From IMG/VR virus record IMGVR_UViG_2974628344_000001, positions 60,329 through 124,328 of that record: a stretch of 64,000 nt of DNA; one strand, 5' to 3'. The notes beneath the pieces are model-generated. The model saw only the letters and a list, made by a program, of their open reading frames with translations, was not told where the DNA came from and made no database searches. Numbering within the stretch: position 1 is the first letter of the stretch; each line of letters starts with the position of its first letter. The DNA comes from Streptomyces virus Wollford. Its lineage: Duplodnaviria > Heunggongvirae > Uroviricota > Caudoviricetes. This document shows positions 5,422-54,906 of the stretch, piece after piece. Position numbers and translations under genes: made by a program.

Positions 5422-6201
5422 ATGAAAATGGCAACGGAACTGATTAAAACTGTACGGCTTGGAAAGAAGCTTTCTTTTGATACAAAGAAGTTCCTTTCTG
5501 TTATTGAGCAGGCTTATGTCAACTCAAGGCCGAAGAGTAGATATTCCAAGAAGGTTTCATTCTCTCCCTCTTCAATTGGCTATGGTGCTGGTACCTGTCC
5601 TAGGTACTGGTACCTAGCTTTTACTGGGGGAGAGTTTGTTGACACCTTTGACGGACTAAGTGTCGCCAATATGGCAAACGGTACAGCAGCACACGACCGA
5701 ATTGAAAAGCTTTTTGCTGATGCTGGCGTACTGGAAGAAGCAGAACGAGAGATTACCCATCAGAATCCCCCAATCAGGGGATTTGTTGATGTTATCGTGA
5801 ATTTTGAGGGAAAGAGAGTTGTTGGCGAGTTCAAGACTACTCGTCAGGAGTCTTACATTCATCGTGAGGCCAATGGAACAGCTATCGATTACCACAAGGT
5901 TCAAGTCCTTGTATACATGAAGGTTCTCGGTCTTGATGAGGGATTTGTTCTTTACGAGAACAAGAACACGCAGGAACTGTTCCTGGTCCCAGTAATCATG
6001 GACGAAGCCAATAAGGAATACACTGACTATATCTTCAATTGGATGAACGAGGTTAGAAACCTATGGGAGGCGGAAACCCTTCCTACTCGTCCATTTACAC
6101 AGAAGAGTAAGGCGTGCAAGTCATGTGCGCTATTTAATGTTTGTTGGAACGAATCTCCAGAAGGCGACATTGATTACGCACCATTGGGGGTGAGAAAGTA
6201 A
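5422..6201 (+). CDS. Cas4-like PD-(D/E)XK exonuclease with C-terminal Cys cluster
   Basis: N-terminal CPRYWY, DVIV...EFK nuclease core, C-terminal CKSCALFNVCW (Fe-S like) as in Cas4/RecB-family phage exonucleases. Confidence 0.6.
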   Translation: MKMATELIKTVRLGKKLSFDTKKFLSVIEQAYVNSRPKSRYSKKVSFSPSSIGYGAGTCPRYWYLAFTGGEFVDTFDGLSVANMANGTAAHDRIEKLFADAGVLEEAEREITHQNPPIRGFVDVIVNFEGKRVVGEFKTTRQESYIHREANGTAIDYHKVQVLVYMKVLGLDEGFVLYENKNTQELFLVPVIMDEANKEYTDYIFNWMNEVRNLWEAETLPTRPFTQKSKACKSCALFNVCWNESPEGDIDYAPLGVRK

Positions 6202-13609: not shown

Positions 13610-14605
13610 GTGAAGGATATGGTCGATAGACCACCCACAGAACAAATGCCTTCCAGAAAGAGAAGAGAAGGCATTGACCTAGAGGCCATTGTTGCAGCCG
13701 TTAATGCACAAGTTATTGCAGAACGAGATGTTATTTCTATTCCTGGCCCTAAAGGTGAAAAGGGTGATAAAGGTGAAGACGGTCCGCAAGGAGAATCAGG
13801 AAAGTCTGCCTGGAAAGAATGGATTGACGCAGGCAATTCTGGAGATGCCAGAGAGTTTCTGAATGCTCTCACTGGACCAATGGGTCCTCAAGGAATCGAA
13901 GGTCCGCAAGGACCACGCGGTGAACCTGGAAGAGATGGAACATCTGTAAAGGGTGAAACAGGCCCAAAGGGTGAAAGAGGAGATCCAGGACCAGTTGGAA
14001 TGACTGGACCTCAAGGTGTCCAGGGCCCTCCAGGCGAATCAATCATTGGTCCAAAGGGAGATCAGGGGCCGCAAGGAATTCAAGGCGTGCCTGGTCCTGT
14101 AGGCCCAGAAGGATCACAGGGTATTCAAGGACCAATTGGACCTCCGGGACCCAAAGGTGACCAAGGAATTCAGGGCCTAAAGGGCGATAAGGGAGATTCC
14201 GGCATTCAGGGAATTCCTGGCCCACAAGGCTTGAAGGGTGATCAAGGTATAGCTGGCCCAAGTGGATCAAAGGGTGACAAGGGTGACCCTGCTACTGTAT
14301 ACTCAGATGGACAGGCAAGAACGAATGTCAAGATCATCACCGGAAAGGTGTTGACAGATGCCACCGGAAAGTTTACAGTAGATCTATCAGGTGCTGGACT
14401 TACAACGATCTATTCAGCTACGGCGACTGCTGCTGCAACGGATGCGACAGCGGCCGGTGTTGGAATGGTCAGCATTCAGACCTTGACAACTACCTCTCTA
14501 GTAGGTACAGTAGTAAGAGCATCACAACTAAGTGTTCTTGGTATCCTATCTGTAACACTTGTTGGATCTGGAAGAAATGTCTACTACACCGTAATAGGAA
14601 GTTGA
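13610..14605 (+). CDS. collagen-like (Gly-X-Y repeat) structural protein, probable tail fibre
   Basis: about 70 uninterrupted G-X-Y triplets ([19 protein letters not shown]...) followed by a non-collagen Thr/Ala-rich C-terminal domain. Confidence 0.85.
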
Positions 14606-14771: not shown

Positions 14772-14850
14772 ACGTCCTGCGGGCGCGATGATTGGAATGG
14801 TAAGGTGACGTCCTGCCATCAAGGTTCAACTCCTTGCGCGTCGCGAACTG
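14772..14850 (+). tRNA. tRNA-like element (T-arm caaggTTCAACTccttg); acceptor pairing not resolved by eye
   Basis: canonical T-loop at 14823-14833 inside ORF-free stretch between two tRNAs. Confidence 0.3.
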
Positions 14851-14949: not shown

Positions 14950-15015
14950 ATTTGGGTCGAATGGGATACGGTTATCACTCAATGGATAATAGGTTCGATT
15001 CCTATCGCTGGGTTC
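14950..15015 (+). tRNA. tRNA-like element (T-arm ataggTTCGATTcctat), 5' half not resolved
   Basis: T-loop at 14993-15003; no matching acceptor found by eye. Confidence 0.25.
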
Positions 15016-15641: not shown

Positions 15642-15718
15642 TGGGGCGTATACCCTCTGTCTGATAAACAGTTGAAAGGTTAAGTGGTCACATGTGGGTT
15701 CAACTCCCACCGTCCCAA
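15642..15718 (+). tRNA. tRNA-like (possible Ile GAU), atypical D region
   Basis: acceptor tggggcg/cgtccca, stem-loop ctgt-cuGAUaa-acag, T-arm gtgggTTCAACTcccac; D arm too short, extra 22 nt before T arm. Confidence 0.35.
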
Positions 15719-20839: not shown

Positions 20840-21060
20840 CTTTGAGGGTCGAATGATTATCGGTTATCTGTCTATGAAACAGACTGAAACACGGTTCGAA
20901 TCCGTGGATTGCTTTGGCGCTAGGTTTACGGTCGATATCAACAACTTATCCTCATACAACTTAATTCGGGCCGAAGAAGTTCGATTATCTTACACTGCAA
21001 ATATAAGATCGATCTTCACCAACTTGCCCGATCTTTTCATTTCTACGGAAGGATCAAAGG
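20840..21060 (+). ncRNA. candidate structured ncRNA (Y-RNA/YrlA-like?) upstream of Ro60 gene
   Basis: 220 nt with no convincing ORF; contains tRNA-like T-arm cacggTTCGAATccgtg (20888-20905) without full cloverleaf; track ORF 20853..21083 is low-complexity. Confidence 0.3.
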
Positions 21061-21431: not shown

Positions 21432-23060
21432 ATGTCCAACGCACTAACTAATGCCGCAAAGGCAACCAACAAGACTTCTCAGTCAATGAAGGCCAAGGAT
21501 GGACAGGTCAAGAACAACGCTGGTGGATTCGTCTTCCAGGTTTCTGATCAGTCACGCCTGGAGCGCTTCTTGATTCTAGGAACTGATGGAGGAACGTATT
21601 ACGTCTCTGAGGTTAACCATACTCAGTCAAACGTGAACTTCCTCAATGAGTTCATTGCTCGTGATGAGGCTAATGTGCTGAACACAATCGTTGATGTATC
21701 TGTCAATGGTCGTGCGTACAAGCAGTCTCCAGCCCTATTTGCTCTGGCTTCTGTCATTGTCAACGGCAAGGACAAGCAGGCAGTTAAGGCTGTATTCAAC
21801 AAGGTCGTAAGGACTGCTACTCATCTCTACGAGGTGGTTAACTATCTTAACGAGCTTGGTGGATGGGGTCGTGCAAAGCGTGAGATCGTAGCTGGTTGGT
21901 TCGATAAGGAAGCTGATAAGCTTGCTTATCAGGCAGTCAAGTATCGTTCCCGTACCTTTGGTGGAAACACCTGGACGCTACGAGACGTAATGCGAAAGGC
22001 TCACCCACAGAACGTCGACACGTCTGTTGCTGATTTCGTTCTAGGCAAGGAGCGCGATGCTACTGATAACCTTCGGGTTATTGAGGGCTTCAAGCTTATG
22101 CAGAAGGCGGAGTCTGTAGAGAGTGTTCATGCAGTTCTGCGGGATTACGAGATGCTTTCTTGGGAGACAATTCCAACGCAGTTCCTCACGGATGCTAGTG
22201 TTTGGAAGCGACTCTTCGCAAATGGTCAGCTTCGTGGTCAGGCTGCTGTTCGAAACATTACTCGCCTTGCGCGCATTGGTGCTTTCAAGGACATGCAGTT
22301 TGCTGCAAGCTTCGCCAGTCAGCTAACGAATGAGGAAATGATTCGTCAGTCTCGACTGCACCCAATTAACTTCCTCAACGCTGCTGTTGTTTATGCAGAA
22401 GGTCAGGTGGATCGAAAGAACATCTGGGGCGAACGTGTAAAGAACTGGGAGACTGAGGCCGTTATTGTCGATGCAATCGATGAGGCGTTCCACAAGTCAT
22501 TCAAGACCATTGAGCCAGCCGGTAAGAGGACGATGCTAGCCATCGACTGTTCCGGATCAATGAGTACACAGGCTATGGGTCTCGACCTAAGCTGTGCACA
22601 AGTTGCTGGTGCTATGGCGATGACCATTGCACGTACTGAGCCAGCTCACATCCTTCGTGGCTTTTCAAGCGCGGGATACAACTGGCGTGATAGCGGTATG
22701 GCCGAACTAAAGATTACTGGTCGCAGCTCTCTTGCTCAGGCAATGAGTGCAATGCGTGCGGTAAACTGGGGCGGTACAGACTGTTCACTGCCAATGACGT
22801 GGGCTCTTGAGAATGGTGTAGAAGTTGACACCTTCGTTGTTCTAACGGATAACGAAACATGGGCTGGAAAGATTCACCCATTCCAGGCTCTCAAGAACTA
22901 TCGTAAGAGCACAGGTATTGATGCACGACTTGCTGTTCTAGGAGTCGCTTCAACTCCATTCACTATTGCTGACCCAAGTGATAGTGGAATGATGGACTTC
23001 GTTGGCTTTGATAGCAACGCTCCACGTGTTCTAGCAGATTTTTCCGCCGGTCGAATCTGA
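21432..23060 (+). CDS. rsr: Ro60/Rsr orthologue (TROVE domain + C-terminal vWA)
   Basis: N-terminal NNAGGFVFQVSDQSRLERFLILGTDGGTYY TROVE signature; C-terminal LAIDCSGSM MIDAS (vWA); 542 aa. Confidence 0.85.
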   Translation: MSNALTNAAKATNKTSQSMKAKDGQVKNNAGGFVFQVSDQSRLERFLILGTDGGTYYVSEVNHTQSNVNFLNEFIARDEANVLNTIVDVSVNGRAYKQSPALFALASVIVNGKDKQAVKAVFNKVVRTATHLYEVVNYLNELGGWGRAKREIVAGWFDKEADKLAYQAVKYRSRTFGGNTWTLRDVMRKAHPQNVDTSVADFVLGKERDATDNLRVIEGFKLMQKAESVESVHAVLRDYEMLSWETIPTQFLTDASVWKRLFANGQLRGQAAVRNITRLARIGAFKDMQFAASFASQLTNEEMIRQSRLHPINFLNAAVVYAEGQVDRKNIWGERVKNWETEAVIVDAIDEAFHKSFKTIEPAGKRTMLAIDCSGSMSTQAMGLDLSCAQVAGAMAMTIARTEPAHILRGFSSAGYNWRDSGMAELKITGRSSLAQAMSAMRAVNWGGTDCSLPMTWALENGVEVDTFVVLTDNETWAGKIHPFQALKNYRKSTGIDARLAVLGVASTPFTIADPSDSGMMDFVGFDSNAPRVLADFSAGRI

Positions 23061-27327: not shown

Positions 27328-27419
27328 TAATAAACGCAATAAACAAAGTTCCTGTTCAAGAGTAAACTTCGTAGGAGCCTGGCAAAAGCCATAAGGTGAC
27401 CGCAAGAGGTTTATTCTTT

Positions 27420-27497
27420 GGGTCTGACAGGTGTGACGTTACTGAAAGCCGACAATGGACCGGTAACGGATAGTGGGTTCGACTCCCACCAGATCCA
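27420..27497 (+). tRNA. tRNA-like element, 78 nt, anticodon arm ambiguous
   Basis: acceptor gggtctg/cagatcc, T-arm gtgggTTCGACTcccac; interior does not fold into a clean D/anticodon pair by eye. Confidence 0.35.
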
Positions 27498-27606
27498 CGC
27501 TGGAGAATTGAAAGTCTTGAAAAGTTGGTCACTCAGTAGAGATTGTTTCACATGCAGGTCTAACCAGCCTCCATGCCGGGCTCAAATCCGGATTCTTCGT
27601 TAACTT

Positions 27607-27814: not shown

Positions 27815-27941
27815 AGGAATGTAGTTTAATGGCAAAACCGCGAAATGCAATGTCGAACGAGAAGTGCTGCTGAGCTAAAGGCGGGTCTTCTACTAGTAGA
27901 TAACAGAGTAGCAGTTGTGGGTTCGAATCCCGCCATTCCGC
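27815..27941 (+). tRNA. tRNA-like with about 55-nt insertion between D arm and T arm (interrupted or pseudo tRNA)
   Basis: 5' part aggaatg-ta-gttt-aatggca-aaac matches tRNA-Gly 12298 D-arm; 3' part gtgggTTCGAATcccgc-cattccg; 75 nt intervening. Confidence 0.3.
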
Positions 27942-28085: not shown

Positions 28086-28157
28086 GGTCCTTTGGCAGAG
28101 ATGGTAATGCACTCGGTTGAAGCCCGAGATATTGCGGTTCGATTCCGCAGGGGACCA
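28086..28157 (+). tRNA. tRNA-Phe (GAA)
   Basis: acceptor ggtcctt/ggggacc, stem ctcgg/ccgag, loop uuGAAgc, T-arm tgcggTTCGATTccgca. Confidence 0.8.
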
Positions 28158-28205
28158 CTAGGGTTGAAGTTTGACAGATTATTTCAACCCATGTATACTT
28201 ACCAT

Positions 28206-28649
28206 ATGAAGACATGTACTGTATGTGGTAAGGAGAAGGACTCAGATTCATTCGCGTTTAGAAATAAAGCGAAGGGAATCCGACGAGCACAATGTAAATC
28301 TTGCATGAGTGATTACGACAAGTCTAAATATCAGACTCCTGAACGAAAGCAAGCAATCAAGGAGAATGATGCAAGAAGACGACAAGAACTGATTGACAGA
28401 GTTTGGGCAATTAAAAACAACGCCTCATGTGCAGACTGTGGCTATTCAAATCCAATAGCTCTAGAGTTTGACCATCTTCCTCAATTTCAGAAGAGTTACA
28501 ATGTCTCTGAGATGGTTGACAGAAGGTTCGCCTGGAGTAAGATTGAAGAAGAGATAGCCAAGTGCGAGATAGTCTGTGCAAACTGTCATAAGATTCGAAC
28601 TCATACAAGAGACCCACGAAGGGTCAGAAATATTACAGTAGCTTGTTGA
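28206..28649 (+). CDS. HNH homing-type endonuclease
   Basis: MKTCTVCG... zinc ribbon N-term, C-terminal DHLPQFQK...CANCH HNH core; paralogue of 36056..36514; track ORF start 28092 overlaps tRNA-Phe and is rejected. Confidence 0.75.
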   Translation: MKTCTVCGKEKDSDSFAFRNKAKGIRRAQCKSCMSDYDKSKYQTPERKQAIKENDARRRQELIDRVWAIKNNASCADCGYSNPIALEFDHLPQFQKSYNVSEMVDRRFAWSKIEEEIAKCEIVCANCHKIRTHTRDPRRVRNITVAC

Positions 28650-28674
28650 CTCAGTTCGATTCTGAGGGGGACCA
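28650..28674 (+). other. orphan tRNA 3' fragment (T-arm + acceptor 3' strand) duplicating end of tRNA-Phe
   Basis: ctcagTTCGATTctgag ggggacc a versus tgcggTTCGATTccgca ggggacc a at 28135-28157; begins 1 nt after HNH stop. Confidence 0.55.
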
Positions 28675-28747
28675 CAATGAGTAGGTAAGGAACGGTTCGA
28701 TTCCGTGTTTCCCGGGTTGGTGTATGGCGCATAGACCTGCTCAGTAT

Positions 28748-28818
28748 TCCGCAGTGGTGAAATGGTATCACATGGCCTTGCCAAGGCTAAAGCGCGAGTT
28801 CGATTCTCGTCTGCGGGA
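28748..28818 (+). tRNA. tRNA-Gly (GCC)
   Basis: acceptor tccgcag/ctgcggg, D gtga/tcac, stem tggcc/ggcta, loop uuGCCaa, T-arm gcgagTTCGATTctcgt. Confidence 0.7.
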
Positions 28819-28821
28819 CTG

Positions 28822-28920
28822 GTGAATGTAAATGGAGGTAGTATGGTTCGATTCCATACGGCCGGTGGCCCGGTATAAAAAGTTAGCTACTGCCCAAGGT
28901 TCGATTCCTTGACATTCACT
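28822..28920 (+). other. aberrant 99-nt tRNA-like element with two T-arm hairpins
   Basis: 8-bp closing stem gtgaatgt/acattcac enclosing tatggTTCGATTccata, ggccggtggcccgg hairpin and caaggTTCGATTccttg. Confidence 0.3.
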
Positions 28921-28924
28921 TAAT

Positions 28925-28997
28925 GCCTCTGTAGAGTAATGGATAACTCAACAGCCTTCTAAGCTGAAAATTGCAGGTTCGAATCCTGTCAGGGGTA
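28925..28997 (+). tRNA. tRNA-Arg (UCU)
   Basis: acceptor gcctctg/caggggt, loop cuUCUaa, T-arm gcaggTTCGAATcctgt. Confidence 0.75.
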
Positions 28998-29017
28998 CTT
29001 TCTACAATGGAGACACC

Positions 29018-34143: not shown

Positions 34144-34267
34144 AAAGCGATTATGCATGATCGCTCAATCGTATTGGGGTTCGATTCCCTCTGGTGAAAC
34201 AATACGGTGTAATTGAGCAGGAAAAGGCGGTCCCATTATGCGGGATGCTGTCTAGCCTCTCTCTTAT

Positions 34268-35981: not shown

Positions 35982-36022
35982 AAGCGGATTAGTGAAACGG
36001 TATCACGCGAGGCTCATAATCT
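35982..36022 (+). other. 5' half of a CAU-type tRNA (acceptor + D-arm + partial anticodon arm)
   Basis: gcggatt ag tgaa acggta tcac g cgaggCTCATAAtctgc; no T-arm follows, HNH gene starts 34 nt later. Confidence 0.4.
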
Positions 36023-36055: not shown

Positions 36056-36514
36056 ATGAAGACGTGTATCAAGTGTAAGAATTCACTAGAGCTTAGTGCA
36101 TTCAGCAAGAATGCTGCTAAGAAGGATGGTCTCCAGAACACATGCAAGGAATGTCGTAAGGCATACCAGAAGACATGGTATAAGGAGAATTCAACTGTCC
36201 ACAAACAAAGAGTTTACTCATCCAGAAACCTGATTAAGCAGTGGGTTTACGATTATCTAGCAAGTCATCCCTGCGTTGACTGTGGAGAATCAAGAATTCC
36301 ATGCCTAGACTTTGACCATCGAGACCCATCAGAAAAGTCATTCAATATTGGTGGTCTTGGAGCTTCAATCAATGGGCTTGACAGGGTGAAGGCTGAGGTA
36401 CTAAAATGTGACGTACGATGTTCAAACTGCCACAGAGTAAGAACGGCTGAACAGTTTGGATGGTACGCATTCACGATGCAGGATGGTGGAGGTAGTTCCA
36501 TGTCGGGCTCATAA
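36056..36514 (+). CDS. HNH homing-type endonuclease
   Basis: MKTCIKCK... zinc ribbon, C-terminal DFDHRDP...CSNCH HNH; C-terminal 9 residues (GGGSSMSGS) read into tRNA-like sequence. Confidence 0.75.
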   Translation: MKTCIKCKNSLELSAFSKNAAKKDGLQNTCKECRKAYQKTWYKENSTVHKQRVYSSRNLIKQWVYDYLASHPCVDCGESRIPCLDFDHRDPSEKSFNIGGLGASINGLDRVKAEVLKCDVRCSNCHRVRTAEQFGWYAFTMQDGGGSSMSGS

Positions 36515-36545
36515 CCCGAAGACCCCAGTGCGACTCTGGGTCCTG
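36484..36545 (+). other. D-armless tRNA-like element with CAU loop and non-canonical T-loop TGCGACT
   Basis: tcgggCTCATAAcccga ... cccagTGCGACTctggg tcctgcc; overlaps 3' end of HNH ORF. Confidence 0.3.
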
Positions 36546-36723
36546 CCACTATGAAAAAGCAATGCCGAATAGGTAGGAAAATCACCATTGATGGTGTAAC
36601 ATTTCCTAAGAGGTGTCTACTCGCTGTGCATGGAGAAGACGTAGCTCATTATGATGGCGATGAATGGTTCATCACTTTTGAGAAGATTAATCCAGATTCT
36701 GAAAGTTCAGTAGTCGTTTACGA

Positions 36724-36930
36724 GTGATTCCTGTTCGAATCAGGGTCCGCCCCCACTTACTTGGAGACAACATGGCTTGCTTTGAAGTTGATGAAGAACT
36801 GGTTGCCAAGAGGGCAGCCGAGATGCTACGATATTTCAAGAGTCAGGAAGCAAAGAAGAAGATGCTGGAGATAGCACGAGAGCTTCCAGAGGTCGCCAAG
36901 GTAGACTACATTTCACTTATGTCAAAGTGA
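36724..36930 (+). CDS. hypothetical protein
   Basis: 68-aa ORF. Confidence 0.35.
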   Translation: MIPVRIRVRPHLLGDNMACFEVDEELVAKRAAEMLRYFKSQEAKKKMLEIARELPEVAKVDYISLMSK

Positions 36931-40134: not shown

Positions 40135-40339
40135 CGTAAGCCCTTCGGGGCTCTAGGGGATGTAATGGTTTCGACTGGCGCGGATAGCTTTAGTTTGCAG
40201 CCTGACATTGAGGAAATGTCATTAAAAAGCCTCAAACAAATAAATGCCAACTCTAACGTTGCATCTGCCTACGCCCTAGCGGCGTGATGGCCGGGCGGCA
40301 ACTGCCTAGGAACAGAAAGTTGCGAATGTTTGGCCCGGT

Positions 40340-40434
40340 GGGGATAAACACACTGTACAACCTGCTTGACACATGGCTGTGTATAGACTACTGTTAGATT
40401 CGTCAGGACGCGGGTTCGACTCCCGCCATCTCCA
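40340..40434 (+). tRNA. tRNA-like element (T-arm gcgggTTCGACTcccgc), about 95 nt if closed by ggggata/catctcc
   Basis: canonical T-arm 40410-40426; 5' boundary and anticodon unresolved. Confidence 0.25.
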
Positions 40435-40447
40435 CTTAAGGATCATC

Positions 40448-42473: not shown

Positions 42474-42584
42474 TAAAGAGTCTTGACAGCCAGCTTAATA
42501 AATATTAAGCTGGCTGTCGCATGCCAGGGAAGTTCTTTGGTAAGAACAGTCTCTCTATAGTGTCATTTGACTGTGCACGGTCTC

Positions 42585-42613
42585 TTGACACCTCTTAGTA
42601 GCGCTGCTAAGAT
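42585..42613 (+). promoter_or_regulatory. promoter TTGACA-N17-TAAGAT
   Basis: recurrent family. Confidence 0.35.
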
Positions 42614-42657
42614 GACAGAGTAGAAAGGTTGGAGGTTCGATTCCTCCCCCTGGCCCT
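42595..42657 (+). tRNA. tRNA-like fragment (T-arm ggaggTTCGATTcctcc)
   Basis: T-loop 42631-42647; no complete cloverleaf found. Confidence 0.25.
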
Positions 42658-42689
42658 ACAATCTTGGCCCCAAGAGGCAACTAATGGTC

Positions 42690-42794
42690 ACCGGGATGCA
42701 TACCGCCCATTGGTCCTTATCTGGGTACCACGTTTATGCAACCGACGGGTTGAGCCCATAAATAATGGGGCAGGTTCAAATCCTGCTGGGGTCT
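42690..42794 (+). other. tRNA-like 3' module (T-arm gcaggTTCAAATcctgc + acceptor tggggtc) on an over-long (about 129 nt) element
   Basis: nearest complementary 5' strand ggcccca lies 129 nt upstream. Confidence 0.25.
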
Positions 42795-54848: not shown

Positions 54849-54906
54849 AGGCCGGGTATACTAGCCAAGACTAGGGAACTATGGGGTTCGAATCCCTACC
54901 GGCCAC
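54849..54906 (+). other. truncated (about 58 nt) D-armless tRNA-like element
   Basis: acceptor aggccgg/ccggcca, 4-bp hairpin ctag-ccaaga-ctag, T-arm tggggTTCGAATcccta. Confidence 0.3.

What the first reader, a model, noticed from the sequence alone, without database searches (positions are those of the whole stretch)
28650..28920. Orphan T-arm/acceptor minihelix elements following bona fide tRNAs
Several tRNAs are followed 20-40 nt downstream by an isolated, perfect T-arm hairpin (aacggTTCGATTccgtg 28700-28716; tatggTTCGATTccata 28841-28857; ggggTTCGATTccct about 34180-34196; D-armless 54849-54906). They have no room for a D or anticodon arm. One 99-nt element (28822-28920) has an 8-bp closing stem enclosing two T-arm hairpins.

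They could be decayed tRNA duplicates. They could also be functional tRNA-like decoys or processing signals (RNase P/Z or TruB/TrmA substrates), or mimics that titrate anticodon nucleases.
Basis: seen in the sequence. Interest (0 to 1): 0.6.

Follow-up and report, generated by a model that had tools for sequence, protein, structure and literature searches.

The report
Orphan T-arms: nuclease scars, tRNA mimics
The stray tRNA "T-arm" hairpins in the tRNA-gene region of Streptomyces phage Wofford are real: a few are leftovers of tRNA genes split by selfish nuclease genes, but most belong to conserved small tRNA-mimicking RNAs, including a family with two or three T-arms that matches no Rfam 15 family and was not found in my literature searches.

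Summary
The window is Streptomyces phage Wofford (cluster BE). Perfect T-arm hairpins outside called tRNAs are real and far above chance: 16-17 on the + strand, 1 on the - strand, about 1 expected.

The flagged interval holds three different things.
1. 28650-28674 is the native T-arm and acceptor end of tRNA-Phe. An HNH endonuclease cassette (28133-28649) displaced it and brought its own substitute T-arm. The pattern holds in 4 of 4 HNH-bearing and 6 of 6 HNH-less relatives. tRNA-Met is split in the same way (36729-36751).
2. 28678-28743 is a 66-nt RNA with a covarying 9-bp closing stem. Its modules follow the order of a circularly permuted tRNA, as in the bacterial Y RNA YrlA, but it lacks the Ro60-binding motif.
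3. 28821-28920 belongs to a "multi-T-arm" RNA family found in phage tRNA arrays and soil metagenomes. Of 23 pairs, 13 show compensatory changes. A model built without Wofford scores it at 52.7 bits. No Rfam family matches it.

The 34176 and 54882 hairpins also lie in conserved structured RNAs.

The phage encodes Ro60, true YrlA/YrlB-type Y RNAs, an RlaP nucleotidyltransferase, an annotated RNA ligase and an annotated polynucleotide kinase.

That these are structured RNAs is well supported. What they do is inferred only.

The parts
28086..28158 (+). tRNA-Phe(gaa), complete, but its T-arm and 3' end (28133-28157, TGCGGTTCGATTCCGCAGGGGACCA) are the substitute copy brought by the HNH cassette
   Evidence: ARAGORN and Rfam. 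The TGCGG/CCGCA T-stem occurs only in HNH-bearing genomes.
28133..28649 (+). HNH endonuclease cassette: substitute T-arm and acceptor end, a promoter-like site at 28171-28199, and the HNH gene gp143 (28206-28649), whose stop codon TGA abuts the displaced T-stem
   Evidence: The insertion is defined against LukeCage, StarPlatinum, Yaboi and Enygma. PHROG 2255 HNH endonuclease, E 3e-33. CxxC...DH...CxxCH motifs. Promoter scan.
28650..28674 (+). Displaced native 3' end of tRNA-Phe: T-arm CTCAG-TTCGATT-CTGAG plus GGGGACCA. A scar, not an RNA gene of its own
   Evidence: Identical to the T-arm and acceptor end of tRNA-Phe in 5 of the 6 HNH-less relatives (Coruscant has GGGGACTA). A displaced copy lies 492-493 nt downstream in 4 of 4 HNH-bearing relatives.
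28678..28743 (+). 66-nt structured RNA with the module order of a circularly permuted tRNA (YrlA-like topology): closing stem 28678-28686/28735-28743; 5-nt linker; T-arm 28691-28707; fused acceptor strands with a palindromic hexamer at 28711-28716; small D-like hairpin 28723-28733
   Evidence: The closing stem is 100% paired with 3 compensatory pairs among 4 distinct sequences, against 30-47% paired in slid controls. The hexamer covaries CCCGGG / CCTAGG / CGCGCG.
28748..28819 (+). tRNA-Gly(gcc), bona fide, a flank of both elements
28821..28920 (+). Multi-T-arm tRNA-like RNA ('family A'), two-T-arm deletion variant: P1 28821-28829/28912-28920; linker AAATGGAGGTA 28830-28840; T-arm 1 28841-28859; small hairpin 28860-28870; hairpin with UAGCU loop 28881-28891; T-arm 3 28895-28911
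   Evidence: A covariance model built without this sequence scores it at 52.7 bits, E 8e-14. Family covariation. Identical in Elmer. Absent in LukeCage, JimJam and TomSawyer.
28925..28998 (+). tRNA-Arg(tct), bona fide. It is 4 nt from tRNA-Gly in relatives that lack the family A element
34146..34252 (+). Structured spacer RNA between two tRNA-Lys(ctt) genes: hairpin 34146-34165; stem 34167-34175/34201-34209 enclosing the T-arm-like hairpin 34176-34190; hairpin 34226-34252
   Evidence: Seven pairs with compensatory changes across Wofford, LukeCage and Samisti12; the T-loop hairpin is identical across genera.
54850..54904 (+). 55-nt D-armless minihelix RNA: 6-bp acceptor-like stem, 4-bp hairpin and T-arm 54882-54898, in a CDS-rich region far from tRNAs
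   Evidence: 97% identical in LukeCage. T-arm and stems identical in Samisti12.
35984..36022 (+). 5' half of a tRNA-Met gene that is intact in LukeCage and Samisti12, split here by the second HNH cassette
   Evidence: Alignment with L005 25058-25128 and L007 25484-25555.
36729..36751 (+). Displaced T-arm and acceptor 3' fragment of that split tRNA-Met. The insert carries HNH gp171 (36056-36514), a replacement tRNA-Met (36477-36549) and gp173
   Evidence: gp171 is a PHROG 2255 paralogue of gp143.
20844..20953 (+). YrlA-type Y RNA: GUCGAAUG motif, UUAUC, V hairpin, T-arm 20890-20906 and a bulged terminal stem, about 480 nt upstream of Ro60 on the same strand
   Evidence: Defining features taken from PMC4201824.
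20965..21031 (+). Second Y RNA (YrlB-like) with a canonical Ro60-binding bulged stem (GGGCCGAAG ... CACCAACUUGCCC)
   Evidence: Rfam hit to the nematode sbRNA family, which are Y RNA homologues by my own knowledge: 37.1 bits, E 3.6e-5. Fold z-score -3.1.
21432..23060 (+). Ro60 orthologue gp125, the likely protein partner of the Y RNAs
   Evidence: Pfam TROVE E 4e-35 and vWA_Ro60 E 1.5e-59.

Best explanation
The orphan T-arms have two origins.

(A) DNA-level scars. HNH endonuclease cassettes of one family (gp143, gp171) sit immediately 5' of the T-arm of a tRNA gene. Each carries a substitute: a T-arm and acceptor end for tRNA-Phe, and a whole new tRNA-Met for the other. The phage keeps a working tRNA, and the native T-arm and acceptor fragment is pushed downstream as an orphan (28650-28674 and 36729-36751). 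Shown: the insertion boundaries and the perfect correlation with cassette presence. Inferred: that these are homing endonucleases that cut in or near T-arm DNA, as T4/T6 SegB does. Also inferred: that the six compensatory T-stem changes in the substitute copy protect it from cleavage.

(B) RNA genes.
- A 66-nt RNA built in the order of a circularly permuted tRNA (28678-28743).
- A 100-nt member of a widespread multi-T-arm family (28821-28920).
- A structured tRNA-Lys spacer RNA (34146-34252).
- A 55-nt D-armless minihelix (54850-54904).

They lack anticodon arms, so they cannot decode.

Most likely mechanism, inferred: they are transcribed with the tRNAs. They are recognised and trimmed by tRNA-processing enzymes through their acceptor/T-arm minihelix or T-loop elbow. 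They then act as stable tRNA mimics, either as partners or adaptors of the phage's Ro60 / Y RNA / RlaP / RNA ligase / kinase RNA-repair set, or as sponges for proteins that bind the tRNA elbow or acceptor end. The same phage encodes true YrlA/YrlB-type Y RNAs with the Ro60-binding motif, so tRNA mimicry is an established strategy of this genome.
For: Not chance, and strand-specific: 56 versus 2 hairpins, about 1.15 expected.

Scars:
- LukeCage, StarPlatinum, Yaboi, Enygma, Coruscant and a metagenome contig carry CTCAG/CTGAG as the T-arm of tRNA-Phe and have no extra copy.
- Wofford, Elmer, JimJam and TomSawyer carry TGCGG/CCGCA in the tRNA, then the HNH gene, then the CTCAG/CTGAG copy 492-493 nt downstream.
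- tRNA-Met is split in the same way by the paralogous gp171.
- SegB recognises GGTTCRANTCC, the T-arm DNA (PMC2330249; PMC13096335).

RNA genes:
- 28678-28743: 9 of 9 closing pairs kept, 3 of them compensatory, among 4 distinct sequences. The hexamer stays self-complementary through changes on both sides.
- Family A: 17 distinct sequences, 97.4% of cells paired, 13 of 23 pairs with changes on both sides, 0 of 500 shuffles reach this, slid controls 44-61%.
- The closing stem P1 is 7-12 bp with at least 12 different sequences.
- A model built without Wofford scores 28822-28920 at 52.7 bits. The next best hit is 29 bits.
- Family A occurs in two phage subfamilies, in 15 metagenome contigs and in one MAG contig. 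Every locus checked with ARAGORN or Rfam is a tRNA array.
- Lys spacer: 7 compensatory pairs.
- 54850-54904 is conserved across genera.

Context:
- Ro60 (TROVE plus vWA_Ro60) and an RlaP nucleotidyltransferase.
- RNA ligase and polynucleotide kinase are annotated.
- The YrlA motif GNCGAAN0-1G plus a T-arm occurs at 20848, 14956 and 27852.
- The Y RNA stem covaries.
Against: - There are no expression or end-mapping data, so excision, stability and any protein partner are inference.
- None of the four flagged elements has the Ro60 motif.
- They lie 7-33 kb from the Ro60 gene, outside the 4-kb rule used to define YrlA.
- The Wofford family A copy is a deletion variant that lacks T-arm 2. Close relatives (LukeCage, JimJam, TomSawyer) lack the element altogether, so it is dispensable for growth.
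- Both spacer sites hold alternative, unrelated elements in other relatives, which could mean rapid neutral turnover.
- The 28678-28743 element rests on only 4 distinct sequences. Its shuffle control is modest: 16 of 500 shuffles reach the observed covariation.
- Its acceptor-like part has no loop and cannot fold as a hairpin.
- Part of the diversity in the family A closing stem could come from recombination with different tRNA scaffolds rather than from stepwise compensation.
- The nuclease activity and target of gp143 and gp171 are untested.
Confidence: 0.7

Rival explanations
1. All orphan T-arms, including the four listed, are neutral debris of tRNA genes. They are fragments left by duplication, deletion and endonuclease-driven recombination in a fast-changing array, and they have no function.
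For: Two orphans are exactly this. The 100-nt element is present or absent among close relatives, and the Wofford copy has lost T-arm 2. Both spacer sites carry alternative unrelated alleles. HNH genes are frequent in such arrays.
Against: Debris should lose pairing. Instead stems stay paired through compensatory changes: 13 of 23 pairs in family A, 3 of 9 in the 28678 stem, 7 in the Lys spacer. Blocks such as AAAUAGGGUAGCUCCCGCC and UGGNNGGU are invariant or nearly so from Streptomyces phages to soil metagenomes. The 34176 and 54882 hairpins are identical across genera.
Confidence: 0.1
2. The elements are real but odd decoding tRNAs. For example, family A could be a tRNA-Ser(CGA) in which the first 'T-arm' is the anticodon arm (loop UUCGAUU, anticodon CGA) and the rest is a giant variable arm.
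For: - The Comrade copy is annotated tRNA-Ser.
- Rfam aligns T-arm 1 to the anticodon arm of tRNA-Sec.
- CGA is constant in the T-arm 1 loops of all 17 sequences in the A6 alignment; the only exception seen is L037, which was left out of it.
- The acceptor and the block before T-arm 3 resemble the phage tRNA-Ser(gct).
- Some metagenome copies begin with GGG and end with a discriminator A plus CCA.
- The phage lacks a Ser(CGA) tRNA.
Against: - The loop is a textbook T-loop with GG/CC closing pairs.
- It has a pyrimidine at position 37, where anticodon loops carry a purine.
- There is no D-arm.
- The closing stem is 8-12 bp in the phage copies.
- ARAGORN and the Rfam tRNA model do not call the element.
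- The tRNA-Sec score is 21 bits against a threshold of 47.
- A GGU/GCC helix encloses 'anticodon' and 'variable' parts in a way no tRNA does.
Confidence: 0.06
3. The flagged elements are additional Y RNAs: direct partners of the phage Ro60 protein that gate it or tether it to a nuclease or repair enzyme, like YrlA and YrlB.
For: The phage has Ro60 and at least three RNAs carrying the Ro60 motif plus a T-arm. The 28678 element has YrlA's module order and a T-stem (ACGG/CCGU) and downstream UGGCGC block like those of the phage YrlA. In M. smegmatis a motif-poor second Y RNA with a T-arm also binds Ro60 (PMC4201824).
Against: No GNCGAAN0-1G motif and no bulged CAACUU stem in any flagged element. 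They are more than 4 kb from the Ro60 gene. Among the metagenome loci carrying family A, a Ro60 gene was seen only on one contig, although the contigs are short.
Confidence: 0.2
4. The T-arm sequences persist for a DNA-level reason. They are landing pads or recombination substrates for the T-arm-targeting endonucleases, which create and spread them. The RNA structure is incidental.
For: SegB recognises GGTTCRANTCC and drives segmental amplification in tRNA arrays. Both Wofford cassettes abut T-arms. The interior of family A is 96% identical between phages of different subfamilies at different genomic sites, while the flanking minihelix differs, which suggests cassette exchange. A multiplication of T-arms inside one element fits repeated break repair.
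Against: A DNA target does not require the two stem strands to stay complementary while both change, nor conserved non-T-arm blocks, nor a strict single-strand orientation. This idea explains origin better than it explains persistence.
Confidence: 0.1

Closest known systems
YrlA / YrlB bacterial Y RNAs bound by Ro60 (Rsr) (Chen et al. 2014, PMC4201824)
   Same: They are non-coding RNAs with a tRNA-like domain and a canonical T-arm, built as a tRNA opened at the anticodon loop: terminal stem, variable region, T-arm, acceptor-like stem, D-arm, terminal stem. They are reported in phages that encode Ro60. Wofford has true examples at 20844-20953 and 20965-21031. The 28678-28743 element has the same module order.
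   Different: The flagged elements lack the GNCGAAN0-1G Ro60 motif and the bulged stem, and lie 7 kb or more from the Ro60 gene. The acceptor-like part of 28678-28743 is collapsed to a loop-less palindrome. Family A has its ends at an acceptor-like stem (not permuted) and carries two or three T-arms.
SegB, the GIY-YIG homing endonuclease in the T4/T6 tRNA gene cluster (PMC2330249; PMC13096335)
   Same: It is a free-standing endonuclease gene inside a phage tRNA array. It shows presence/absence polymorphism among relatives. Its target includes the T-arm DNA motif GGTTCRANTCC. It causes co-conversion and segmental duplication of tRNA sequence.
   Different: The Wofford enzymes are HNH proteins (PHROG 2255), not GIY-YIG. 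Activity and target are untested. Here the cassette carries a sequence-diverged substitute for the tRNA part it displaces, which leaves a precise 25-nt or 23-nt orphan.
Partial tRNA genes left by mobile elements that integrate into tRNA genes (PMC9897764; Williams 2002 as cited there)
   Same: An element carries a copy of the tRNA 3' part and so restores the gene. A T-arm and acceptor fragment is left at the other end of the insert.
   Different: No integrase or att recombination is involved. The insert is a 0.5-0.7 kb endonuclease cassette within a phage genome. The two copies differ by compensatory stem changes.
Phage T4 stable RNA species I and II in the tRNA cluster; tmRNA tRNA-like domain. 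Their tRNA-like ends are from my own knowledge; the genes are only mentioned in PMC2330249.
   Same: They are small stable RNAs of unknown function (T4) or non-decoding function (tmRNA). They are encoded among or near tRNAs. They use an acceptor/T-arm minihelix for processing by tRNA enzymes.
   Different: No sequence or Rfam relationship was found. Family A has extra internal T-arms. There is no mRNA-like part.
Type II tRNA (tRNA-Ser)
   Same: The family A acceptor (GGAGUG/CACUCC in metagenome copies) and the block before the last T-arm (GUAGCUCC) resemble the phage tRNA-Ser(gct). The length is comparable to a tRNA with a long variable arm. It is a probable evolutionary source.
   Different: No D-arm and no anticodon loop with a purine at position 37. 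Additional T-arms. Fails the tRNA models.

Membership tests
Canonical tRNA | Called by tRNA gene finders or reaches the Rfam RF00005 threshold | tested here: not met
   ARAGORN calls none of the flagged elements. There is no RF00005 hit at 28650-28747, 28821-28920, 34144-34267 or 54850-54904, even at E up to 10 for the first three.
Canonical tRNA | T-arm: 5-bp stem, 7-nt loop UUCRANN, G53-C61 closing pair | tested here: met
   All flagged hairpins fit, with 4 of 5 stem pairs at 28691 and 34175.
Canonical tRNA | D-arm, and an anticodon arm with a 7-nt loop (U33, purine 37) | tested here: not met
   Seen directly in the sequence and folds. The only candidate loop in family A is UUCGAUU, with U or C at position 37.
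Canonical tRNA | 7-bp acceptor stem abutting the T-arm | tested here: inconclusive
   Family A has a stem abutting the T-arm, but it is 9 bp in Wofford and 7-12 bp across the family, often with one unpaired base. 54850-54904 has 6 bp. 28678-28743 and the Lys spacer have the T-arm next to the 5' strand instead.
tRNA-Sec | Rfam RF01852 threshold and a UCA anticodon | tested here: not met
   21.0 bits against a threshold of 47; no UCA loop.
YrlA-type Y RNA | GNCGAAN0-1G motif near the 5' end (Ro60 contact) | tested here: not met
   Absent from all four flagged elements. Present at 20848, 14956 and 27852.
YrlA-type Y RNA | Conserved T stem-loop within a terminal stem formed by the 5' and 3' ends, in the order stem-V-T-AS-D-stem | tested here: met
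   Met for 28678-28743. Partly met for 34167-34209, which has a T hairpin only. Not met for family A or 54850-54904, whose ends lie at the acceptor-like stem.
YrlA-type Y RNA | Encoded within about 4 kb of the Ro60 gene on the same strand | tested here: not met
   Same strand, but 5.6 kb or more downstream of the Ro60 stop (28678), 11 kb (34146) and 32 kb (54850). The Ro60 gene is at 21432-23060.
YrlA-type Y RNA | Bound by Ro60 in vivo | not testable with these tools
   Needs immunoprecipitation or in vitro binding.
Homing-endonuclease cassette with target duplication | Endonuclease gene present or absent at an otherwise collinear site among close relatives, with precise boundaries | tested here: met
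Homing-endonuclease cassette with target duplication | Protein belongs to a known homing endonuclease family | tested here: met
   PHROG 2255 and 3106 HNH endonuclease, E 3e-33 and 4e-38. HNH motifs are visible in the sequence. No Pfam hit at E up to 0.01.
Homing-endonuclease cassette with target duplication | Cleaves the cassette-less allele and is inherited preferentially | not testable with these tools
   Needs an enzyme assay and mixed infections.
Multi-T-arm RNA 'family A' (defined here) | Significant score against a covariance model built from other members | tested here: met
   52.7 bits, E 8e-14 for 28822-28920, with model R1 built from 14 sequences that exclude Wofford. The next hit is 29 bits.
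Multi-T-arm RNA 'family A' (defined here) | Three T-arms plus the conserved blocks UGGNNGGU and AAAUAGGGUAGCUCCCGCC | tested here: inconclusive
   Wofford keeps T-arms 1 and 3, the GGU/GCC pairing and the UAGCU-loop hairpin (with a compensated stem, AGU/ACU instead of GGG/CCC). It lacks T-arm 2, a deletion of 31 model positions.

The most novel reading that the evidence does not exclude
The multi-T-arm RNAs (28821-28920 and their relatives in phage tRNA arrays and soil metagenomes) are an undescribed class of phage non-coding RNA. Each displays two or three tRNA elbows on one acceptor-like stem. They would act as multivalent tRNA decoys or scaffolds, soaking up or recruiting proteins that recognise the T-arm, elbow or acceptor end. 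Candidate targets are host tRNA-targeting immunity effectors, tRNA-modifying or processing enzymes, and the phage's own Ro60/RlaP repair machinery. The smaller permuted and minihelix elements would be reduced versions of the same strategy.
Probability: 0.25. Interest if true: 0.8.

Novelty: new variant of a known kind. Interest (0 to 1): 0.62.

Why it matters
Phage tRNA arrays are currently read as lists of tRNAs. GenBank annotates none of these elements in Wofford. The family A relative in Comrade is called tRNA-Ser, and odd tRNA-like elements at the Phe-Gly spacer site in Enygma and Coruscant are called 'tRNA-OTHER'.

This analysis shows that the gaps in such arrays hold two kinds of information.
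1. A legible record of endonuclease cassettes that split tRNA genes while replacing the part they displace. This extends the SegB T-arm-targeting picture to HNH enzymes in actinophages.
2. A set of conserved tRNA-mimicking RNAs next to a Ro60 / Y RNA / RNA-repair gene set.

If the multi-T-arm family is a functional decoy or scaffold, it would add an RNA-based layer to the conflict over tRNAs between phages and host defences. It would also give an easily tested system, because Wofford and LukeCage differ naturally by presence of the element. In practice it warns annotators that 'tRNA-OTHER' and odd tRNA-Ser calls in these phages are neither tRNAs nor junk.

Tried and rejected
- Rfam at permissive thresholds on the window and on six family A loci gave no family beyond tRNA, tmRNA and weak T-arm-driven hits.
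- The tRNA-Sec reading of the 100-nt element was rejected: 21 bits and no UCA.
- Ro60 motifs (GNCGAA, CAACUU) were searched in the flagged elements and are absent.
- More variants of the 28678 element were sought in IMG/VR. Only the four already known turned up.
- The tRNA-Gly 3' end pattern in IMG/VR gave 5 loci.
- The genome-collection scan for the family A block gave 7 hits. Six look like chance occurrences of an 18-mer and one (L030) is a real member.
- tblastn of Ro60, RlaP, RNA ligase and kinase against the metagenome loci found Ro60 on one contig only, so co-occurrence could not be tested.
- MAFFT could not align the family A closing stem, because the linker length varies. That stem was therefore tabulated by script rather than with the count of structure pairs.
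- My first structure string for the 28678 element mis-registered the T-stem by one column. Only the closing-stem result from that call is used.
- Single-sequence folding z-scores were mostly unimpressive (-0.4 to -2.4) and were not relied on.
- Literature searches found genome announcements only and no description of these elements.
- A hammerhead-like reading of CUGAUGG in some family A copies was considered and dropped because it is not conserved.
Full report
IDENTITY AND CONTEXT

The window is 100% identical to Streptomyces phage Wofford (MH576968, cluster BE, Karimacvirus). Window position equals record position minus 60328. ARAGORN finds 43 tRNAs and a tmRNA, all on the + strand, between 12.3 and 56.9 kb.

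The same region encodes:
- a Ro60 orthologue, gp125, with Pfam TROVE E 4e-35 and vWA_Ro60 E 1.5e-59;
- an RlaP-family nucleotidyltransferase, gp107, E 9e-7;
- an annotated RNA ligase and an annotated polynucleotide kinase;
- several HNH endonuclease genes.

About 120 related genomes are in the phage collection.

A scan for a 5-bp stem with a TTCRANN loop gives 56 perfect hairpins on the + strand and 2 on the - strand. Markov simulations of the window give 1.15 per strand, with a maximum of 4. Forty lie inside called tRNAs or the tmRNA.

The rest are orphans at 5895, 14820, 14989, 15694, 20890, 27473, 27917, 28650, 28691 (4 of 5 stem pairs), 28842, 28895, 34175 (4 of 5), 36729, 37655, 42631, 42770 and 54882. 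Of these, 37655 is an annotated tRNA-Tyr and 5895 is inside a CDS.

The phenomenon is therefore real and strand-specific. The 99-nt element with a closing stem and two T-arms is confirmed at 28821-28920.

ORPHAN 28650-28674 IS A SCAR

In relatives without the HNH gene (LukeCage, StarPlatinum, Yaboi, Enygma, Coruscant and a metagenome contig), tRNA-Phe ends with CTCAG-TTCGATT-CTGAG-GGGGACCA. The spacer follows directly.

In Wofford, Elmer, JimJam and TomSawyer, the tRNA-Phe body is followed by a different T-arm, TGCGG-TTCGATT-CCGCA, with the same acceptor end. Next come a 47-nt leader with a strong promoter-like site (TTGACA-17-TATACT, 28171-28199) and the HNH gene gp143. Immediately after its stop codon comes the CTCAG...GGGGACCA sequence.

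The correlation is 4 of 4 against 6 of 6. The two 25-nt copies differ at six positions, all in the T-stem, forming three compensatory pairs.

gp143 and gp171 both match PHROG 2255 (HNH endonuclease, E 3e-33 and 4e-38).

gp171 marks a second case. LukeCage and Samisti12 have an intact second tRNA-Met. In Wofford its 5' half (35984-36022) and its T-arm and acceptor part (36729-36751) are separated by gp171, a different complete tRNA-Met (36477-36549) and gp173. The stop codon of gp173 again abuts the displaced T-stem.

The precedent is SegB of T4/T6. It is a homing endonuclease in the tRNA cluster whose recognition site contains GGTTCRANTCC, the T-arm motif, and which drives duplication in the array (PMC2330249; PMC13096335). 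Leftover tRNA 3' fragments from elements that restore the gene they enter are well known (PMC9897764).

That the Wofford enzymes cut T-arm DNA, and that the altered stem confers immunity, is inference.

ELEMENT 28678-28743

The spacer between the displaced fragment and tRNA-Gly is conserved in one clade. Four distinct versions exist: Wofford, LukeCage/StarPlatinum, Yaboi and a metagenome contig.

A 9-bp stem closes the element (28678-28686 with 28735-28743). It is paired in every sequence, and three of its pairs change on both sides. Slid controls are 30-47% paired. The shuffle control is only moderately convincing, with 16 of 500 shuffles reaching the observed value, as expected for four sequences.

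The T-arm lies next to the 5' strand of this stem, which is not tRNA geometry. Read in order, the parts are:
- the closing stem;
- 5 nt;
- the T-arm;
- 7 nt;
- 7 nt;
- U plus one further base;
- a 4-bp hairpin;
- one base;
- the closing stem.

This is the order of a tRNA opened at the anticodon loop and closed at the acceptor end. It is the topology described for the bacterial Y RNA YrlA (PMC4201824).

The hexamer at the junction of the two 7-nt stretches is CCCGGG, CCTAGG or CGCGCG in different phages. It stays self-complementary through changes on both sides. That is expected if the hexamer represents pairs 70-72 with 1-3 of an acceptor stem whose strands are fused without a loop.

Such a stem cannot fold as a hairpin. 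It would need cleavage at the junction or pairing between two molecules. This remains unexplained.

The element lacks the Ro60 motif. Other relatives (Enygma, JimJam, Coruscant and a metagenome contig) carry unrelated 74-nt odd tRNA-like genes at the same site, which are annotated 'tRNA-OTHER' in Enygma and Coruscant.

ELEMENT 28821-28920 AND ITS FAMILY

LukeCage, JimJam and TomSawyer have tRNA-Gly and tRNA-Arg 4 nt apart. Wofford and Elmer have an identical 105-nt spacer between them.

NootNoot and 12 other records have a 140-nt version at the same site with three T-arms. Phages of the other subfamily (Faust, Sham, TunaTartare, Moab, Stigma, Comrade) have it next to tRNA-Arg(cct) and the tmRNA.

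The interior is about 96% identical between NootNoot and Faust, but the closing stem and last T-stem differ completely while staying paired.

A pattern from the conserved block found further copies:
- one IMG/VR contig;
- one 1.4-kb contig binned to Weeksellaceae;
- 15 metagenome contigs.

Every locus that was scanned with ARAGORN or Rfam lies among tRNA genes.

The consensus reads, in order:
- closing stem P1 of 7-12 bp;
- AUGGAAGGUAA;
- T-arm 1;
- a small hairpin with a UGG loop;
- T-arm 2;
- a variable hairpin or an A-rich linker;
- AAAUAGGGUAGCUCCCGCC, which contains a hairpin with a UAGCU loop and a GCC that pairs with the upstream GGU;
- T-arm 3;
- P1.

On 17 distinct sequences, 97.4% of pair cells are standard pairs and 13 of 23 pairs have changes on both sides. 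None of 500 shuffles reaches the observed values, and slid controls give 44-61%. P1 could not be aligned by MAFFT, but a script finds it in every member, with at least 12 different sequences.

A covariance model built from 14 members without Wofford scores window 28822-28920 at 52.7 bits (E 8e-14). The next hit is 29 bits, and the remainder are tandem tRNAs. The Wofford copy lacks T-arm 2.

No Rfam family matches any member, and I found no paper describing it.

The acceptor-like stem in metagenome copies (GGAGUG/CACUCC), and the block before the last T-arm, resemble the phage tRNA-Ser(gct). Descent from a type II tRNA is therefore likely. Some copies carry G3-U70 and an encoded CCA.

Samisti12, Coruscant and Beuffert carry a different 98-nt element with an 8-bp stem and one T-arm at the same or a nearby site. 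Tribute carries a third element without a T-loop.

THE OTHER TWO LISTED HAIRPINS

The 124-nt spacer between two tRNA-Lys(ctt) genes folds into three hairpins. All of them covary between Wofford, LukeCage and Samisti12, with 7 compensatory pairs. The T-loop hairpin (34176-34190) is nested next to the 5' strand of a stem and is identical across genera.

The element at 54850-54904 has a 6-bp acceptor-like stem, a 4-bp hairpin and a T-arm. It lies between protein genes far from any tRNA. It is 97% identical in LukeCage, and the T-arm and stems are identical in Samisti12.

LINK TO Y RNAS

Upstream of the Ro60 gene, 20844-20953 has:
- the GUCGAAUG motif (GNCGAAN0-1G);
- UUAUC;
- a V hairpin;
- the T-arm at 20890;
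- a bulged terminal stem that covaries.

The region 20965-21031 matches the nematode stem-bulge RNA family at 37.1 bits through the canonical Ro60-binding stem. That these RNAs are Y RNA homologues is from my own knowledge.

The motif plus a T-arm recurs at 14954 and inside a 126-nt tRNA-shaped RNA at 27815-27940, and is conserved in relatives. The 14954 copy sits next to the RlaP gene and has an acceptor-like hairpin closed by UUCG.

The phage therefore makes tRNA mimics of a known kind. The flagged elements share the T-arm and, in one case, the topology, but not the Ro60 motif.

HOW IT MOST LIKELY WORKS

Shown:
- the scars and their boundaries;
- the conserved structures;
- the family membership;
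- the genomic context.

Inferred:
- The structured elements are co-transcribed with the tRNAs, since they are all on one strand and mostly within arrays.
- They are recognised by RNase P, RNase Z or exonucleases, the CCA-adding enzyme, and T-loop modifying enzymes, through the minihelix or elbow.
- They persist as tRNA mimics that cannot decode.
- Their role is either with the Ro60/RlaP/ligase/kinase set or as decoys for proteins that bind the elbow or acceptor end.

An anticodon-nuclease decoy role is unlikely because they have no anticodon arm.

I put about 0.85 on 'conserved structured RNAs plus endonuclease scars'. I put about 0.3 on any particular function.

NOVELTY

Endonuclease-associated tRNA fragments and phage Y RNAs are known kinds. 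The HNH cassettes that carry a compensated substitute T-arm, the loop-less permuted mini-tRNA and, above all, the multi-T-arm family appear undescribed. The overall verdict is a new variant of a known kind, namely tRNA-like non-coding RNAs.

Noticed in passing
window 27420-27496: A 77-nt RNA that matches only the tRNA-like domain of the tmRNA model (both ends; 38.4 and 29.8 bits, threshold 47). It has a G3-U70 pair and a 14-nt loop where the mRNA part would be. An 82-nt stretch (27417-27498) containing it is 100% identical in LukeCage. The phage also has a full tmRNA at 40156-40435. It could be a 'tRNA-like-domain-only' tmRNA mimic.
   Followed up: partly
window 27815-27940: A 126-nt tRNA-shaped RNA (acceptor stem, normal D-arm, T-arm; Rfam tRNA 34.2 bits) whose anticodon arm is replaced by a 71-nt extended arm containing the Ro60 motif GUCGAACG (27852). 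It is conserved in LukeCage, Samisti12 and a metagenome contig. It looks like a non-permuted Y RNA and is not annotated.
   Followed up: partly
window 20844-20953 and 20965-21031: Two unannotated Y RNAs (YrlA-like and YrlB-like) between tRNA-Asp and gp124/Ro60 gp125. The second nearly reaches the Rfam threshold of the nematode stem-bulge RNA family (37.1 against 38 bits).
   Followed up: yes
window 14954 to about 15045: A second YrlA-like RNA (GGGTCGAATGGGATACGGTTATC, T-arm 14989-15005, acceptor-like hairpin CTGGG-TTCG-CCTGG) directly upstream of the RlaP nucleotidyltransferase gp107. The surrounding stretch is 97% identical in LukeCage. Samisti12 has a similar one after tRNA-Ile (L007 7894).
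   Followed up: partly
window 14781-14843: An orphan T-arm (14820-14836) between the two tRNA-Pro genes, absent in LukeCage. The stretch ending in it is the second-best hit of the family A model (29 bits) through a GGUAAGG...CCUGCC-T-arm module, so it may be a partial family A relative.
   Followed up: no
window 42523-42654 and 42666-42793: Two adjacent RNAs of about 130 nt, each with a perfect 7-bp acceptor stem abutting a T-arm and a large structured insert (fold z-score -3.2 for the first). They lie in a 389-nt gap between protein genes. The second is partly conserved in LukeCage and both T-arms are present in Samisti12.
   Followed up: no
window 15642-15717: A 76-nt element with a 7-bp acceptor stem and a T-arm, just downstream of the RlaP gene. 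It is not called by ARAGORN or annotated. It is 97% identical in LukeCage and its T-arm is present in Samisti12.
   Followed up: no
L004 (Elmer) 988-1548 and L011 (TomSawyer) 1686-2246: A further HNH cassette lies upstream of tRNA-Gly. Its reading frame runs into a sequence-diverged 5' part of tRNA-Gly and it replaces the 28678-type element. The tRNA-Gly of Elmer is not annotated.
   Followed up: partly
L002 (Enygma) 960-1037; same in L012 (Yaboi): In place of tRNA-Arg(tct) there is a variant with an acceptor stem, a UCU anticodon arm and a T-arm, but no D-arm and a 22-nt variable region that contains D-arm-like sequence. It is not called as a tRNA.
   Followed up: no
L020 (Coruscant) 1060-1133: The 'tRNA-OTHER' between tRNA-Phe and tRNA-Gly has normal acceptor, D and T arms, but its 'anticodon' loop is GUCGAAG, which fits the Ro60 motif GNCGAAN0-1G.
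   Followed up: no
window 28711-28716: A self-complementary hexamer that covaries (CCCGGG / CCTAGG / CGCGCG) with no room for a loop. It implies either cleavage at its centre or pairing between two RNA molecules. Unexplained.
   Followed up: partly
window 13619-14605: gp104 is a 328-aa collagen-repeat protein (Pfam Collagen, E 6e-25) inserted in the tRNA region. The annotated genes at the corresponding place in LukeCage differ.
   Followed up: no
L026 2606-2679 (IMG/VR contig 3300015242_000042): A related metagenomic phage contig carries a tRNA with anticodon CUA (called 'Pyl' by ARAGORN), that is an amber-reading tRNA, in the same array as a family A RNA and a Ro60 gene.
   Followed up: no
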